A stretch of 64,000 nucleotides of DNA from Candidatus Aenigmatarchaeota archaeon (GTDB taxonomy: Archaea; Aenigmatarchaeota; Aenigmatarchaeia; QMZP01; QMZT01): the NCBI GenBank assembly GCA_041489155.1, contig JBGPQP010000004.1:31030-95029 (forward strand), read 5' to 3'. Positions 31,401 through 37,400 of the stretch are shown here, piece by piece. The position numbers are program-made. Positions within the stretch are counted from its first letter, which is position 1; each line of letters starts with the position of its first letter.

Positions 31401-34400
31401 TCCGCGAACCGTCACGTTCATCGTTGTGCTGCCGGTCGCGTAGTCAGCCGAGTCTCCCAAAGGAGTGAAAACGCTTAACGTAAGCGCAAATAAGCCGAAT
31501 ACTATGAATATTCCCAACGCCCCAATTCCAACTCTCATAAATATTTATTAAGGCACTAGAATATAAATGTTTAAACATTTTTATTTTAAACTTCTTCCTA
31601 CCCCCTTTCTTCTTTTATGTAAATCGTTGTGTTGTACGAGTTCGGGTCCTGTCCCTGCGGAACCGACAGCCAGAAATACAGAGTAGTTATGTTGCTCTGG
31701 CCCGCGGGAACGTTCGACCTTATCAACTGATAGCCAGTTGAAAGCTGTATGACCTGGGAATCTGGCGACGTAGAATTGACAGTTACGTTACCTATGCCTA
31801 TGACCGAACTCCCGTTTACCAGGTCACCTGTCGCCATTATCGAAACGTTGACTGTCCCGCAGCCAGCGGTGGACAAATCGGTTATGTTGTAGTTCCCGTT
31901 GTCCACCGCGGAAACGTTAACCTGATCCGGGTCCTGCTCAGCGAAGCGAATGCCTGCCTCAAGCTGCGAAGTCATTGCGAAATCAACGTTGCAGGCGCTC
32001 ACGCTCAAATTCAGAACAGTCGTGTTCGAATTAATCCTTCCGGAAGAATCGTTCACGTACGTGGTGTTGTAAAAGAACGTCCCGGCCGAATCGCCCACGT
32101 TAACATTCACCGAATACCAGCCGTCGCCAGCCGAACCTGCGCAGCTGCCTGTGTCGGACATCGTTATATTGAATATGCTCCCGTTGGATTGCGTTACCGT
32201 AGTCCAGACAGCATTTACCCCAAAATTATCAGAAACTCCTGAAACGTTCAGGCATACAATTGTATTCATGCCCACAGAGCCTGAGTTGTTGATATGTTTG
32301 CTTCCTATTTGTGGGTTTGTTAAATCTACCGTGAACGTCCTGTTCACGTTGGACCAGTCTGCCTGATTAATTGTATCATTACACCACGCATCCCACTTCC
32401 ATGTCCCTTCTGGTATGCCGGAGACGGTCACATTCCACCAACCGTTGTTCGTGGGGCTTGAATTGGTCTGGTTCGCGTGCCAGCCTGACCAGTTGCCGTA
32501 GAGCTTGAGCGTACTCACGCCTATATTATCAGAACACTTCAAATCGAAAACTATTGAGCCGTCGGAGTCGTTATAATAGGTGACAGGATTCGTTCCCAGG
32601 GAGGCGGTTGGGTCGGCATCACTTTCTTCTTCTATCGTTATGTTGTGTTCCGAACCCAGCGTCAGGGTGAAGTTCAACTCTCCGTTAGCCTGCGATGTGA
32701 GATTGCAGTTCGCATCATTACAATCATTTCCGTCCATCTTTGCGGAATAGTTAATTGTCGTGTTTGGCATCTGCACTGTCAGATTTGTTGAGCCTGTCCC
32801 GTCCAAATAAATAGTTGCGTTATTTGTATCAGATGCAGGCGAGGTTGCTGATAAAATAAGGACATCGGTGTTTGTGTTGTTCTTTATTTGAGGGGTTGTT
32901 GTGTACAAGTAAGATATGTTTACATAAGAAGGATTTGTTTGATTAGTATACCATGTTGGATGCGTTCTCAATTTAACAGCCAGCCGGTACCATGATTTTA
33001 CATAATCCATTGACCAGTTCACAGTAAAGTTTCTGTTAATCCATGTATAGACAGTTACAATGGGGACACTTTGATTATAATCGCTGTTACTATCATAAGT
33101 AGTATATCTTTCAACACCTGTATAACTATCTGATTCAGCTTTATACCAAAAAGACATGTTCATATCTTTAATAAAACTGGGGACAGTTACCGTTAAATCA
33201 TCAGGAGATGCTTGAACCCAACCACTGCAGCTCCAATATTCTTCTGTTGTTGGGGGCGTTAAAAGCAAAGATTTTGCATCGGTGCCAATACCTGTTGGCT
33301 GACCGTGCGTTGGGTTAACATCCCTGAAATAGTAATCCACTTTTGCTTCTGTTGTATTAACAAGAAACGCATAGTTTCTTATTACATTATTGTTGTTGGT
33401 GGGTTCTGTTACATTTATTAGCAAAGAATATAACCCAAGCCTTGTTGCCGTAAAATTCCCTGTAATGCTATTCCCGCTTTTTGACATACTAACTGTTTCA
33501 TAAGGCCTTGTTGTTATGTTGTATGCGCAATTATCGCAGGCTCCTCCACCTAGATAATACAGAGATATATTAAATCCAACCAAGTCATTAACATTAGGCG
33601 TTTGATTAGTTGTTGAAACCGTAATCATGGTGTTATTAATATTATGTATAAATTTATTATTGGAATAGATATTGTTTGAACTACTCATATCATATACATT
33701 ATTTGATATAGTATTCCCAGTTAGATGGGTATTAGACGAAGACTGAAGATAAATACCATACCGAATGTTTGAATCGGCAGTGTTATTCGTAAGGTTGTTA
33801 TCATAAGACGAAGAATCAATATAAATCCCGGCATAATAATTCGAATTAGCAGTGTTATTCGTAAGGGTGTTATTAGATGAACCCTGAAGATAAATACCAG
33901 AGCCCATGGACCAAGTGTTCGAATTGGCAGTGTTATTCGTAAGGGTGTTATTAGATGAAGAAGAAAGATAAATACCATGAGAGTTCATGCTCAAATTGAC
34001 AGTGTTATTCGCAAGGGTATTAGATGAAGAATAAAGAAAAATACCCGCGTGGACACTCGAACTAATAATATTATTGGCTATAATGTTATTATCAGAATAA
34101 GAATAAAATGTAAGTCCACGATAATTATTTGTTATAGTATTTCCTCTAATTTCTGTTCCTGTTGCATTAATCTCCAAACCATACTTACCGTCTGTGTTAG
34201 ACCATCCAGCCTCGCTCAGCAAGGAATTCTTCATCGCAAATGTTGAGCCAGAATCAACTTTAAAGAAGAATTCACGTGTTGTATTGACTGCTGTGATATT
34301 GCTTGCATCACTTGTTGTTGATGCGTCATCATCATTGTCATAGATGTAGAAAGCCCCTCCTGACTGTACTTTGATTCCGTACTGGCCATCACTAGAAGAA

Positions 34401-37400
34401 TTCATTTTAGGGGTGACGTTCCTGAATGTGAGATTGCCGCCGTTCTGTATTGTAAGATTGCCAGTCATTGTCATTATTCTATTGCTGCACATCTGTGTAT
34501 TGCTAATAATCCAATCATCACCACTGCCAGGATATGCACAGGTTGTATTAATACTGAATGAAACATTTGTTATGCTATTAAGATTTCCCAATGTGTCATT
34601 TGCAAACAAGTATAATGTGTGCGTTCCTTCTGATGTGTCGAATGTTGTGTTTGCGCAGTTTGCCAATGTCGTGTTGGCGCCTTTGTCAAGGTTGTACCAG
34701 CACTTATCAACGCCTGTGTAATCCGTGACAGTGTAATTCAAGTTTATTGACAGATTTCCGTATGTTCTGTTTTTTGGAGCAACTATTGTGATGCTTGGCG
34801 GTATGTTATCCGCTTGCACTTGCAGAGAGCCAGTATTATCTAGGTTTGCTGAACCTGCCTCTATGTAGGTTGATGTTCCTACTGCACATCCTTCAACTGT
34901 CCAGTTAATAGTGCCAGCAGGATTGCTTGCGGGAAGGATAGAGCAAGAAACGTTGCTGGCGTAAATAGCGCAATAGGAAGCCATGGTGCCAGTCGTTTGT
35001 ATCGCTATAATTCGTATCTGGTTTGAACCGCATGCATTAGTTATTGTCGCGCCACCTGAAACTGTTAAGGTGATTGTTCCGCTCCATGGGTCGCCAGTTT
35101 CATAGTGCACAACCGAGAAGGTTGTGTTCTGGCCTAAGCTTATTGGTGAAGTGACAACAGTAAATGATGAATCATAAAGCCTTGCTGGCGCGTCGCTTGC
35201 AATCATCCATTGTCTCGACTCTTTCCAATTGCCGATTTCAAGCGGCCCGAGGATGAAGAGAGAGGGGGAGATGTCGGGCGCATCGAATTCGTAACCGATT
35301 TCATAGGTTTCGCCCGGGGTCAGCTTCTTGTCCCATGACAGAATCTTGGCATCCCCCGCGTCTGTGACCGTCATACCTTCATTAGGCGTTATTTCAAAGC
35401 CTGAAGGCACGTATTCGTTTATCAGGCCTTCGTAATCCTTGTTAGCCTTTATGACGAAAATCATACTGTATTTCGCCGGCGGATATATTCTTGTCGGACC
35501 ATTTCTTGCGACGTCGAAATCCGTTCGCTTTTTCACCTCGAATGCGTCTGTCATGCTCCTTACGCCGTTCATTGTAATAGCTGTCAGATTCATGGTATAT
35601 GTACCTTCCTTGTTCACGATGTAAGAGGCATAGTAATCGGGAAGGTTGGTCACTCCGTAGAGTTCGCATTCAGGCGAAACGCTTATAGTGCCATCGGACG
35701 TTCCCAAGGTTGTTGTTACGCCTTGCGAATCTGTTATTTGAAGCGTTACGTCGGCGTTGCAGACCATGTGACCTTGGTCGTCCAGAACGGCCATTCCGAT
35801 GAAGGCCTGCTCGTTTTCGAGATAAATCGATTTGTGGGTGTTTATGGCGAGCACGCCCCAGAGGAATTCCCCTTCTTTTTCGTATGTTTCATTCCCCTCC
35901 TTTACCTCCATCCTTATCTTGTACAAACCCGCCCTGAACGCCCTTCCTTTCGAAAGCTCTATTTCATACTCCCCACTGCCAACCTTCAAAACATCCGCTT
36001 TTACCTCAAGCAATTTCCGGTCAGGGCCGTAAACAAAAACATTCAAAACCTCCGGCCATGTTCCCTCCTCGATTATCTTTCCCTGCTCGGAAAATACATT
36101 TTTCGAGATCAGCCTGAATCTCGGTTTTTCGTTCATCCCGAATCTCTCCTTTACTGGCGAGAATCCCACAACTTTTTCCAAGAATAACCTTGGGAATGTT
36201 TCGTTGGTTTCCGTTACGTTCAGGTCGTGTTCAAGGAATGACCTGTTCTCGCTTGTTTTGTTAAACTCCTCTTCAAGAACAGTCCTATTCATAGCGGTTT
36301 CATTTTTCAGGAATGTCCTGTTTTCTGCCAACCCAGAAATCAGTTCCTCTCTCGTGACGTTCGATTCAACGCAGTCCCTGCATGTGCCCCACAAATATTT
36401 TCCCGTGGTTTCGTAGCCTTCACTCACATTATCGAAGGTTAAATCAGGAACATATTCAAGAATTTGGACGATTGTCACGCTCGCGAAGAGCACTAGCAAG
36501 GCAAGAATGATAAAACCGGCGTTGATGCTGCACGAGGATTTGGCCCATGCACCTCTGGGGAACCTGTGGCCGTTTTTCGTTTTCGGATAATGCAGCTTCG
36601 CCTTGCCTACGTCCCTCACGATAATCTTGCCCGTTGCCTGAAGGACGACGAGATATTTAGAGGCAGTCATCCTGTTTATGGCTAGCGCGCTGGCTATTTC
36701 CTCTATTGTAAGCCCGTAATCGTGTTTTGCGACAAGTTTCAGAATTTTTTCCTCAGTGCCGTTTCCGCCCATCAGAAACCTCGCCAGCCAAAAACCATGT
36801 TTAATTATTTATACGAGGTCATATAAATTTTTTAATCATTGATGATTATCATTGATGATTATTTATTTCATCACCAAGTGCAAGATATCAAAAAAAATCC
36901 CCTAGCAAGCGACATGGTATAATGGCAACATTTAAATAGCCGACATATAATAATGTGATTATTATGCCAAAAGAGAAAGTGCAAGTAATGGTTGAAGGCG
37001 GCAAGGCAACAGCCGCTCCTCCGCTGGGACCAGCCCTTGGACCGCTTGGCGTCCCGATAAAGAAGATAATAGACGAGATAAACACCAAGACCAAGGACCT
37101 TGCAGGCACACAGGTTCCGGTGACCGTCATAGTTGATACCTCGACCAAGAACTTCGAGGTAAAGGTCGGCACGCCGCCGGTCAGCGCGCTCATCAAAAAA
37201 GAGCTCGGCATAGAGGCCGGCGCCAGCGAGGCGGGAAAGGTAAGGGCGGGCGACCTCACCGAAGAACAGGTTGTCAGGATTGCTTCTGCAAAATTCGGCT
37301 CAACCGATCCCCGCTACGTGAACCAGATAAAGGGCTCGGCGAGGAGCATGGGGATAACGATAGGCAAAGGCCCGCTGAGCGAAGATGAAATAAAGGCCTA

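What a model noticed while it worked through the whole genome (the two positions that open the first line are those of the whole stretch)
31598..36772. Giant surface proteins that start with a cytoplasmic winged-helix DNA-binding domain
g00446 (1724 aa) and g00922 (>3860 aa, C13:1-11580) both begin with a ~65-aa winged helix-turn-helix domain, then a basic stretch and one membrane helix, and only then the huge extracellular part (beta-helix/NosD repeats in g00446); two stand-alone copies of the same small domain (g00999, g01003 on C17) sit directly in front of genes for large secreted proteins. I read these as transmembrane transcription regulators whose sensor is an adhesin: contact of the giant outer part with a host or surface would be passed straight to DNA bound at the membrane, or release the DNA-binding head by proteolysis. 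Coupling of a giant adhesin to gene control in one polypeptide would be a new way for episymbi [...]
Evidence so far: Call 138: blastp g00999/g01003 (78 and 86 aa; Pfam HTH_IclR, HTH_11, MarR_2 in pfam.tsv) match aa 7-62 of g00446 (45-56% id, E 1e-11 to 5e-13) and aa 10-84 of g00922 (32-42%, E 2e-9 to 2e-6); phmmer g01003 vs proteome: g00999 2.7e-20, g00446 5.4e-11, g00922 1.1e-4. Call 139: hydrophobic helix at aa 77-95 (g00446) and 86-104 (g00922), preceded by KTKNGHRFPRGAWAK / KKERQAIKRLQGHDMK. g01003 overlaps the start of g01002 (663 aa, signal peptide) by 8 nt; g00999 precedes g00998 (522 aa, signal peptide). Call 141: with the first 70 aa of g00446 as query, 13 of 22 other genomes of the family have a match at E<=1e-6; of 24 matches outside this genome 15 lie in open frames of 198-14526 aa (e.g. 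1139, [...]
(Added by a program. Inside this text positions count along the whole contig: contig position 31,030 is position 1 of the stretch shown here. "Call 12" and the like, gene names such as g00115 and contig names such as C1 are that model's own, and its searches are not shown. The text may have been shortened before it was handed on; [...] marks where a part breaks off. The agent that wrote the report below was given it as the finding of a first reader that could run no searches.)

Follow-up and report, generated by a model that had tools for sequence, protein, structure and literature searches.

The report
Surface-protein gene fused to its regulator
A giant cell-surface protein of a tiny symbiont-type archaeon carries at its front end a small DNA-binding domain that most likely switches its own gene, because in related archaea a separate regulator gene and the surface-protein gene behind it have repeatedly merged into one.

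Summary
ORF 31598..36772 (-) encodes 1724 aa: a winged helix (aa 1-65), a basic linker, one hydrophobic helix (aa 85-107, not 77-95), then a sequon-rich ectodomain with a beta-helix.

The head belongs to a family found in 242 of 301 genomes of the phylum. Most members are free-standing genes of 65-95 aa. These typically overlap the start of a gene for a large protein that begins with a signal sequence. The two genes fused at least 3 times (8 on the best tree). The fused proteins keep the old signal-sequence start ('KSS...').

New here: the g00446 promoter carries two perfect TCATCAATGA palindromes 13 bp apart, a pair unique in the 1.13 Mb genome. Related paired sites lie upstream of relatives, fused or free. 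A degenerate pattern hit 8 places in 91 genomes, all just upstream of such genes. Operator type tracks the recognition-helix sequence.

So the head is most likely a DNA-binding autoregulator of its own surface-protein gene. The 'adhesin as sensor' idea is not supported: ectodomains are unrelated and the head works free-standing in most relatives. Whether the head is cut off by signal peptidase is open.

This scan earlier noted surface proteins with C-terminal DNA-binding tails on other DNA.

The parts
36836..36858 (-). Candidate operator: two perfect 10-mers TCATCAATGA (36849-36858 and 36836-36845), 13 bp centre to centre, 64-86 nt upstream of the ATG
   Evidence: A 13-bp-spaced pair with 3 or fewer mismatches to TCATTAATGA occurs once in the 1.13 Mb genome. 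Related pairs lie upstream of relatives.
36821..36833 (-). A-rich stretch plus TTTATAT, a possible BRE/TATA directly after the operator (inferred only)
   Evidence: Read from the sequence. No transcript data. A second TATA-like run lies at 36801-36814.
36778..36785 (-). GGCGAGGT, a Shine-Dalgarno-like stretch 5 nt before the ATG at 36772 (inferred)
   Evidence: Sequence.
36578..36772 (-). Winged helix-turn-helix head, aa 1-65 (helices 4-16, 23-30, 34-47; wing strands 50-55 and 58-63)
   Evidence: Pfam HTH_11 25.5 bits. AF2 blocks over aa 11-60 have pLDDT 95-98. Foldseek top hits are MarR/ArsR-type regulators. Family alignment A1 has nearly invariant R34, T36, R53, G56.
36521..36577 (-). Basic linker, aa 66-84 (KNGHRFPRGAWAKSSCSINA), holding the 'KSS' remnant of the downstream gene's former start
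   Evidence: Split relatives' downstream genes start M-K-S-S... No start codon lies between aa 53 and 91.
36452..36520 (-). Single hydrophobic helix, aa 85-107: the former signal sequence, now a signal-anchor or an internal signal peptide
   Evidence: Hydropathy core 87-105, the only one in 1724 aa. AF2 helix 85-107. Same length range as N-terminal signal sequences of split relatives.
31601..36451 (-). Extracellular, probably N-glycosylated part, aa 108-1724
   Evidence: 81 of 82 sequons lie here. N/S/T each make up 10-11.5%.
35132..36094 (-). Module aa 227-547 shared with the second fused giant (g00922 on contig C13); Ig-like (weak PKD, MG2, WxLIP hits)
   Evidence: tblastn 32% identity, E 8e-32. 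Pfam sub-threshold hits.
33602..34081 (-). Right-handed beta-helix (Beta_helix / NosD repeats), aa 898-1057
   Evidence: Pfam 3.2e-37 and 4.4e-22.
31601..31999 (-). Conserved C-terminal end domain, aa 1592-1724, kept at 76-79% identity in relatives whose middle parts differ
   Evidence: blastp against P0002 and P0003. Weak likeness to the neighbouring 203-aa protein, E 0.023.
28137..31538 (-). Three further same-strand genes for secreted or anchored proteins directly downstream: 203 aa, 190 aa with a C-terminal anchor, 690 aa with CARDB. Possibly one transcription unit with g00446.
   Evidence: ORFs and N-terminal hydrophobic segments. CARDB hit. Gaps of 59, 119 and 25 nt computed.

Best explanation
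g00446 is a self-regulating surface-protein gene.

What it is. Its first 65 residues are a minimal winged-helix DNA-binding domain. The domain belongs to a family that is normally a separate 65-95-aa gene. That gene sits first in an operon and is translationally coupled (overlaps of 4-25 nt) to a gene for a large secreted or anchored surface protein.

How the fusion arose. In several lineages the two genes merged. The regulator became a cytoplasmic extension in front of the cargo's signal sequence. In g00446 no internal start codon is left, so the giant protein can only be made as the fusion.

How it most likely works. The head, probably as dimers, binds two adjacent palindromes (TCATCAATGA, 13 bp apart) next to the promoter of its own gene and so sets its own transcription. 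I think negative feedback on a very costly protein is the likeliest sign. In the fused form the regulator emerges first from the ribosome and ends up held at the membrane by the signal sequence. In a very small cell the membrane is never far from the DNA.

Shown: architecture, family, gene order, repeated fusion, paired palindromes at the promoters.

Inferred: DNA binding itself, dimerisation, the sign of regulation, and whether the head stays joined to the ectodomain.
For: Fold and family:
- HTH_11 hit, AF2 model at pLDDT 84, PDB neighbours all DNA-binding MarR/ArsR-type regulators.
- The same head is fused to cytoplasmic PAS/GAF sensor domains in P0072, P0076 and P0110, the usual build of one-component regulators.

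Gene order:
- Of 27 free-standing head genes in the best loci, 18 are followed at -25 to +119 nt by a gene starting with a basic-plus-hydrophobic segment.
- By the same criterion, 204 of 913 ORFs (22%) of this genome start that way.

Fusion:
- I examined 28 of the 33 long frames listed. In 26 the head is followed within about 35 aa by a hydrophobic segment.
- Junctions keep the 'KSS / MKSS' start of the split genes.
- The tree needs 8 fused/free changes; strongly supported branches force at least 3.

Operator:
- Pairs of CATYAATG within 40 nt occur 3 times in 1.13 Mb, each directly upstream of one of the three closest head genes.
- The 13-bp-spaced pair occurs once, at g00446.
- The g00922 promoter has its own genome-unique palindromes, TGTAC-N6-GTACA and TGTCGATCGACA.
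- 12 of 36 upstream regions have two or more sites, against a mean of 1.16 and a maximum of 5 in 200 shuffles. In 11 of the 36 two sites lie exactly 13 nt apart (my reading of the site positions printed; spacing was not tested against the shuffles).
- The degenerate pattern hits 10 times at 8 places in 91 genomes, all within 100 nt upstream of a head gene, with 0 hits for the reversed control.
- Operator class tracks the recognition helix: class A goes with I-N-R-x-T-A-S-K-Y-L in 10 of 12, and TGTACA-type with H-R-H-T in 10 of 10.
Against: - No experiment shows DNA binding.
- The Pfam score is marginal (25.5 against 25).
- The operator pattern was derived from the loci it was then counted in. 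The reverse search shows specificity, not independent discovery; only G009 was a new case.
- 32 of 56 upstream regions fit none of my three strict operator classes.
- Enrichment of generic palindromes is moderate: arm of 7 or more in 25 of 53, against 22% of AT-rich controls.
- Helix-operator tracking is confounded by shared descent.
- A 65-aa head has no obvious dimerisation element, and the complex predictor was unavailable.
- The operator's position relative to the real TATA box and transcription start is unknown, so the sign of regulation is a guess.
Confidence: 0.62

Rival explanations
1. First reader's model. This is a transmembrane transcription regulator whose sensor is the adhesin. 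Contact of the giant ectodomain with a host or surface is passed through the single helix to the DNA-bound head, or triggers proteolytic release of the head.
For: - The architecture (DNA-binding domain, one TM, outside domain) meets the definition of TTRs in PMC10269533 (abstract and passages).
- g00446's own hydrophobic segment lacks a small-x-small end (...VTIVQ|ILEY), so it may stay uncleaved.
- A site-2 protease (M50) gene exists in the genome, one copy in this window.
Against: - The head is free-standing in most relatives (103 of 150 representatives are 110 aa or less).
- Fused ectodomains are unrelated to each other, so no common sensor exists.
- 12 of 27 fused relatives carry a signal-peptidase-like end after the hydrophobic segment.
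- The strict operator pair is found only at the gene's own promoter.
- M50 proteases are housekeeping: present in 14 of 14 control genomes.
Confidence: 0.12
2. Export-coupled release. The hydrophobic segment is still a cleavable signal peptide. Signal peptidase separates the giant protein from a roughly 105-aa 'head plus signal peptide' stub. The stub stays in the membrane or is freed by signal-peptide-degrading proteases. The amount of active regulator would then report how many molecules were exported.
For: - The hydrophobic segments of fused proteins are as long as the N-terminal signal sequences of split relatives (median 18 against 22 uncharged residues).
- They end alike: 12 of 27 against 7 of 18 in small-x-small. 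By my reading of the sequences printed, about 10 of the 27 fused ones end in 'A|Q'.
- This end is conserved within two separate fused groups.
- The genome has a signal-peptidase-like gene (weak, 24 bits), SppA and M50.
Against: - No cleavage predictor or proteome data were available here.
- g00446 itself lacks the small-x-small end.
- An uncharged stretch of 18-25 residues also fits a permanent anchor.
- The proteases named are housekeeping enzymes.
Confidence: 0.18
3. The head does not bind DNA. It is a cytoplasmic protein-binding handle (as recalled for the HTH of RodZ, which binds MreB). It would position, assemble or help export the giant protein. The upstream palindromes would belong to another factor.
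For: - Winged helices often serve as protein-binding modules (general knowledge).
- Repeated fusion to the signal sequence suggests physical closeness to the export step.
- A neighbouring scan note reports a MinD/coiled-coil module beside giant surface-protein genes in this genome (e1-3241609, not tested here).
Against: - Nearest folds are all DNA-binding regulators.
- Relatives are fused to PAS/GAF like ordinary regulators.
- Palindromes are genome-unique at exactly these promoters and change with the recognition helix.
- Nearly invariant R34, T36, R53 and G56 sit in the recognition helix and wing.
Confidence: 0.06
4. Artefact. The long frame is a mis-assembly or sequencing frameshift that joins two genes.
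For: In split relatives the two genes overlap in different frames, so a one-base error could join them.
Against: - The same junction is kept in 5 other genomes of three genera for the g00446 group and in 6 for the g00922 group.
- P0002 and P0003 from other sources share it.
- No indel appears in contigs of four runs.
- The ancestral start Met is replaced and no start codon remains.
Confidence: 0.02

Closest known systems
Transmembrane transcription regulators (TTRs) as defined by Demey et al. 2023, PMC10269533 (abstract and passages read); classic cases ToxR, TcpP, CadC
   Same: A predicted DNA-binding domain and a single membrane helix in one polypeptide, with the head inside and the rest outside. 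The paper reports that single-pass forms make up 56% of TTRs and that 367 of 404 archaeal species have at least one TTR.
   Different: - The head is a minimal HTH_11/MarR-like winged helix, not the OmpR-type of ToxR/CadC (that type is recalled; no Trans_reg_C hit).
- The outside part is a 1600-aa (elsewhere up to about 14,000-aa) glycoprotein with interchangeable domains, not a dedicated sensor.
- The membrane helix is a recruited signal sequence.
- The likely target is the protein's own promoter.
- The terms DPANN and HTH_11 do not occur in that paper, and 'adhesin' occurs once. Its supplementary lists were not opened.
ArnR / ArnR1 of Sulfolobus acidocaldarius (PMC6396743, abstract read)
   Same: Archaeal membrane-bound one-component regulators that bind promoters of cell-surface structure genes (flaB, aapF, upsX).
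   Different: They are dedicated regulators acting on other genes. They are not part of the surface protein itself and have no giant ectodomain. I recall their membrane helices as C-terminal, but did not check this here.
Regulators fused to, or held at the membrane by, the protein they control: BirA (HTH_11 head on biotin ligase), PutA, SdpR-SdpI, Mlc-PtsG (all recalled, no call)
   Same: An autoregulatory DNA-binding head is physically joined to, or sequestered at the membrane by, the product of the operon it controls. BirA's head is the founding HTH_11 example.
   Different: Those partners are enzymes, transporters or immunity proteins, not secreted giant surface proteins. None sits in front of a signal sequence.
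C-terminal double winged-helix tails on archaeal surface proteins noted earlier in this scan (e1-4724219, e1-1223018, e1-1440091, e1-1455513)
   Same: The same theme: a surface protein and a DNA-binding domain in one polypeptide across one membrane helix, in DPANN and Thermoplasmatota.
   Different: There the tail is C-terminal, doubled, and lies after a C-terminal anchor. Here it is a single N-terminal head in front of the signal sequence, with a documented split ancestor and a candidate operator. Those notes were not re-tested here.

Membership tests
Transmembrane transcription regulator (TTR, Demey et al. 2023) | A predicted DNA-binding domain | tested here: met
   HTH_11 25.5 bits against cut-off 25. 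AF2 winged helix. Foldseek top hits are DNA-binding regulators.
Transmembrane transcription regulator (TTR, Demey et al. 2023) | At least one predicted transmembrane region | tested here: met
   One hydropathy peak at aa 87-105. AF2 helix 85-107. No dedicated TM predictor was available.
Transmembrane transcription regulator (TTR, Demey et al. 2023) | Regulates transcription while in the membrane, in response to outside information | not testable with these tools
   Only a candidate operator was found. It is unknown whether the head stays tethered.
Pfam HTH_11 (PF08279) | Score at or above the gathering threshold | tested here: met
   25.5 against 25 for the whole protein and 27.3 for aa 1-529. 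Relatives scatter around the threshold: P0002 25.6, P0003 20.3, P0004 23.3. Membership is therefore marginal.
ArsR/SmtB metalloregulators | Match to the family model over its cut-off | tested here: not met
   NCBIfam HTH_metalloreg scores 17.7-21.1 bits against a cut-off of 55 in the free-standing relatives, and gives no hit for the g00446 head. No conserved Cys or His in alignment A1.
MarR family proper | Winged helix flanked by N- and C-terminal dimerisation helices, about 140 aa (recalled definition) | tested here: not met
   The head and the free-standing members have only three helices plus a wing in 65-95 aa. MarR_2 reaches its cut-off only in P0060.
ToxR/CadC-type regulators | OmpR-type winged helix (Pfam Trans_reg_C; recalled) | tested here: not met
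   No Trans_reg_C hit at E up to 10 on aa 1-529.
Archaeal class III (pilin-type) signal peptides | Charged residue at -2 and G/A at -1 directly before the hydrophobic stretch (recalled FlaFind-type rule) | tested here: inconclusive
   The junctions read ...C-G-L-N... or ...N-A-G-F..., with G present but no charged -2 residue. Judged by eye only.

The most novel reading that the evidence does not exclude
The head-plus-signal-sequence is a 'signal peptide that is a transcription factor'. Each giant precursor is cut by signal peptidase. The cut leaves a membrane stub carrying the winged helix, and the stub's retention, release or destruction feeds the rate of export straight back onto the gene's own promoter. 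In the split form the free regulator would do the same by touching the cargo's signal sequence. This would be a secretion-metering circuit for proteins of up to about 14,000 aa, and I know of no prokaryotic precedent for it (from recall, plus the searches).
Probability: 0.15. Interest if true: 0.85.

Novelty: new variant of a known kind. Interest (0 to 1): 0.6.

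Why it matters
DPANN archaea live attached to other cells and spend a large share of tiny genomes on giant, fast-changing surface proteins. 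How these are controlled is unknown.

This locus gives a concrete, testable unit. It has a 65-aa regulator, a 23-bp operator and a cargo gene, and it is found in about four fifths of the genomes sampled in the phylum.

Nature has also repeatedly welded the regulator onto the cargo's signal sequence. That gives a natural series of split and fused forms. The series could answer an open question for transmembrane regulators in general: can a DNA-binding domain work while tied to the membrane, or must it be cut free?

The operators also give a handle for predicting which surface-protein genes are switched independently in uncultured symbionts.

Tried and rejected
- Complex prediction (head homodimer) was not available, so dimerisation is untested.
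- The search for related loci with alignment A1 failed for lack of a conserved stretch. I used the genome search instead.
- The search for related loci with the single head gave 7 loci whose titles mostly say 'uncultured archaeon'. I therefore could not confirm the phylum name. 'Aenigmatarchaeota' comes from earlier scan notes only.
- No RNA holder was listed for 35800-37000, so there is no transcript start or expression data.
- Contigs of runs X3 and X4 cover the stretch only in pieces.
- Literature: four full-text searches and passages of PMC4158269 and PMC8204110 gave no description of a regulator fused in front of a signal sequence, or of this gene pair. This is not proof that none exists. 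Subscription journals and the supplements of PMC10269533 were not seen.
- A generic palindrome count is only moderately enriched, so I rely on the specific motifs instead.
- The idea that the junction is a pilin-type (class III) signal peptide was dropped, because there is no charged -2 residue.
- The C-terminal end domain resembles the neighbouring 203-aa protein only weakly (E 0.023). I did not model it, so how a cleaved ectodomain would stay on the cell is open.

Full report
**1. What is at the coordinates**

The coordinates are window coordinates. ORF 31598..36772 on the minus strand is 1724 aa. The neighbours are FtsZ, SecE, Spt5/NusG, ribosomal protein L11, a GINS subunit, aIF5B and aIF2-beta. 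This, with a 1.13 Mb genome in 39 contigs at 89.65% completeness, fits a small-genome archaeon. Earlier notes of this scan call it Aenigmatarchaeota. I could not confirm the name.

**2. Anatomy of the protein**

- Pfam gives HTH_11 at aa 7-52, 25.5 bits against a cut-off of 25, with weaker HTH_IclR and HTH_24. It gives Beta_helix/NosD at aa 898-1057.
- An AlphaFold2 model of aa 1-125 on a 58-row alignment has mean pLDDT 84.4. It shows helices at 4-16, 23-30 and 34-47, a two-strand wing at 50-63 and a long helix at 85-107.
- The best PDB fold matches are SlyA, ArsR, MepR, HlyU, CadC of pI258 and SmtB, all DNA-binding winged-helix regulators.
- A hydropathy scan finds one hydrophobic segment in the whole protein, aa 87-105.
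- The stretch before it is basic. 81 of the 82 N-x-S/T sequons lie after it, about 4.8 per 100 aa.
- So the precursor has its head inside and a glycosylated 1600-aa part outside.
- Against its two closest full-length relatives, the N-terminal 102 aa (64% identity) and the last 130 aa (76-79%) are conserved. The middle is replaced by other modules, PQQ propeller or FG-GAP.

**3.

- Two free-standing heads lie on contig 17. One (88 aa) overlaps the next gene by 8 nt. The other (78 aa) lies 2 nt before the next gene. Both downstream genes encode signal-sequence proteins, of 663 and 522 aa.
- A frame of more than 3860 aa on contig 13 has the same head, then 'MKSS', then a hydrophobic segment.
- g00446 aa 227-547 are also homologous to part of that giant: 32% identity, E 8e-32.

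**4. The family**

- phmmer with aa 1-110 against 1.84 billion representatives gave 265 hits at E<=1e-3. Of the best 150, 103 are 110 aa or shorter and 28 are longer than 250 aa.
- Some long members join the head to cytoplasmic PAS or GAF domains (P0072, P0076, P0110). Others join it to a hydrophobic segment and sequon-rich sequence with beta-helix, MG2, CBM_4_9 or Laminin_G_3 domains.
- A profile of the head matched 242 of 301 sampled genomes of the phylum at E<=1e-6, including 18 of 22 other genomes of the same family.
- Of the 150 matches listed, 33 lie in open frames of 250 aa or more, up to 14526 and 14236 aa.
- I examined 28 of those 33. In 26 the head is followed within about 35 aa by a hydrophobic segment. 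Of these, 24 have a single segment followed by sequon-rich sequence, and two have several hydrophobic segments.
- One frame (L052) has no such segment. In one (L056) the head is not N-terminal. Five frames were not fetched.

**5. Where the fusion comes from**

- The best loci hold 27 free-standing head genes. Eighteen are followed at -25 to +119 nt (typically overlaps of 13, 8 or 4 nt) by a gene whose product starts with a basic stretch and a hydrophobic segment; of these 18, fifteen are 450 aa or longer or run off the locus, and three are 239-452 aa.
- Of the rest, two are followed by a second head gene, three by unrelated genes, and four have no call within 400 nt.
- By the same hydropathy criterion, 204 of 913 ORFs of this genome (22%) start that way.
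- The downstream genes often begin M-K-S-S. The fused proteins read ...K-S-S-C-G-L-N... or ...M-K-S-S-L-G... at the junction. The hydrophobic segment of the fused proteins is therefore the former signal sequence of the second gene.
- A tree of 57 head domains needs 8 changes between fused and free. Strongly supported branches alone force at least 3. Few columns are available, so many forks are unresolved.
- The six fused heads of the g00446 group sit beside a clade of free-standing ones.
- In g00446 there is no ATG, GTG or TTG between codons 53 and 91, so the giant protein cannot be started separately.

**6. The candidate operator (new here)**

- Upstream of g00446, 64-86 nt before the ATG, lie two perfect copies of TCATCAATGA 13 bp apart, at window 36836-36845 and 36849-36858 on the minus strand. 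An A-rich stretch and TTTATAT follow directly.
- In the whole genome, pairs of CATYAATG within 40 nt occur three times. Each is directly upstream of one of the three closest head genes.
- A 13-bp-spaced pair with at most three mismatches to TCATTAATGA occurs once, at g00446. No pair occurs at any other spacing from 10 to 20.
- The more distant g00922 has a different recognition helix. Its promoter carries TGTAC-N6-GTACA and TGTCGATCGACA, each found once in the genome.
- Across 36 upstream regions of head genes from many genomes, 24 have at least one site and 12 have two or more. In 200 shuffles the means were 8.2 and 1.2, with maxima of 14 and 5. In 11 regions two sites lie exactly 13 nt apart; I read this from the printed site positions, and spacing was not tested against shuffles.
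- In the reverse direction, a degenerate 22-mer pattern searched in 91 genomes of the order hit 10 times at 8 places. All lie within 100 nt upstream of a head gene, fused or free. The reversed control pattern hit 0 times.
- The pattern was built from these loci, so this shows specificity rather than independent discovery. Only the G009 site was new to me.
- Operator class follows the recognition helix. Class A goes with I-N-R-x-T-A-S-K-Y-L in 10 of 12 cases. The TGTACA class goes with H-R-H-T in 10 of 10.
- However, 32 of 56 regions fit none of my strict classes, and shared descent confounds the link.
- Generic palindromes are only moderately enriched: 25 of 53 against 22% in AT-rich controls.

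**7. What I conclude**

The head is most likely a DNA-binding autoregulator. The unit 'small regulator plus large surface-protein gene' is a common module in this phylum, and g00446 is a version in which the two have fused. The sign of regulation is unknown. The operator abuts one TATA-like box and lies downstream of another weaker one, and in split relatives it lies between a TATA-like box and the start codon. I favour negative feedback by analogy with other first-gene winged-helix regulators (general knowledge, not tested).

**8. Is the head cut off?**

- The hydrophobic segments of fused proteins are as long as those of split relatives: median 18 against 22 uncharged residues.
- They end alike. 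Twelve of 27 fused and 7 of 18 split segments end in small-x-small, and many fused ones read ...I-T-A|Q-N.... This looks like a signal-peptidase site.
- g00446 itself reads ...V-T-I-V-Q|I-L-E-Y and lacks it.
- The genome has a weak S24/S26-type match, SppA and two M50 matches, one of them in this window at 3304..4782. These are housekeeping genes. PF04258 gave nothing anywhere, controls included.
- I cannot decide between a permanent tether and cleavage. I list cleavage-coupled feedback as the boldest reading still open.

**9. Why the adhesin-as-sensor idea is not supported**

- The head works free-standing in most relatives.
- The ectodomains of fused members share no common module.
- A cleavage-like site often separates head and ectodomain.
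- The strict operator pair is confined to the gene's own promoter.
- None of this excludes the idea for g00446 in particular, which may be uncleaved.

**10. Comparison with what is known**

- By the definition of Demey et al. 2023 (a DNA-binding domain plus a TM region; PMC10269533, abstract and passages), the precursor is a single-pass transmembrane transcription regulator. That paper reports such proteins in 367 of 404 archaeal species. It does not mention DPANN or HTH_11 and mentions adhesin once. Its supplements were not opened.
- ArnR and ArnR1 are archaeal membrane-bound regulators of surface-structure genes (PMC6396743, abstract), but they are not part of the surface protein.
- CadC and TcpP proteolysis papers were seen only as search listings.
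- BirA, PutA, SdpR-SdpI, Mlc-PtsG and RodZ are recalled analogies.
- Four full-text searches found no description of this gene pair or of a regulator placed before a signal sequence.
- This scan has earlier noted C-terminal double winged-helix tails on archaeal surface proteins on other DNA. The present case is the N-terminal counterpart, with a traceable split ancestor and a candidate operator.

**11. Checks on the sequence itself**

Contigs of four public DNA runs laid on 35800-37000 show no insertion or deletion. Two may be the source sample and two cover only parts, including codons 1-94. No RNA run was listed.

**12. Verdict**

This is a new variant of a known kind (a transmembrane or membrane-linked one-component regulator). 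Its interest lies in the recurrent regulator-cargo fusion, the giant cargo, and a directly testable operator.

Noticed in passing
G000 contig C13:11721-12185 (+), locus L004:1835-2300: A 155-aa protein made of two tandem copies of the same winged helix is transcribed divergently from the second fused giant (g00922). The shared intergenic region holds the two genome-unique palindromes TGTCGATCGACA and TGTAC-N6-GTACA.
   Followed up: partly
Loci L021, L025, L027; proteins P0011, P0012, P0022, P0024, P0088: The head family also occurs as tandem gene pairs, as two-domain proteins (139-168 aa), and as arrays of 7-9 winged helices in proteins of 598-800 aa without hydrophobic segments.
   Followed up: no
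window 28137-31538 (-): Three more same-strand genes for secreted or anchored proteins follow g00446 at gaps of 59, 119 and 25 nt. They are a 203-aa protein that weakly resembles g00446's C-terminal domain (E 0.023), a 190-aa protein with a C-terminal anchor and a lysine-rich tail, and a 690-aa CARDB protein. They could hold a cleaved giant protein on the cell.
   Followed up: partly
window 31601-36451 versus P0002 and P0003: The giant proteins keep both ends (64% and 76-79% identity) while the middle is exchanged for unrelated modules. This is a cassette-like, hypervariable build. G+C falls to 0.42 over the gene against about 0.50-0.53 around it.
   Followed up: partly
window 3304-4782 (-): A 492-aa protein with a Peptidase_M50 (site-2 protease) domain, 89 bits, lies in the same window.
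   Followed up: no
G000 contig C24:3693-4416 (+), locus L005: An unrelated ArsR-like winged helix is followed by several hydrophobic segments in a 241-aa frame. This is a second kind of membrane-linked helix-turn-helix protein in the genome.
   Followed up: no
Loci L041 (G096:C3) and L046 (G151:C1): Open frames of 14526 and 14236 aa begin with this head and a signal-like segment. They are among the largest archaeal genes I have seen reported by these tools. Only the first roughly 6500 aa were fetched.
   Followed up: partly
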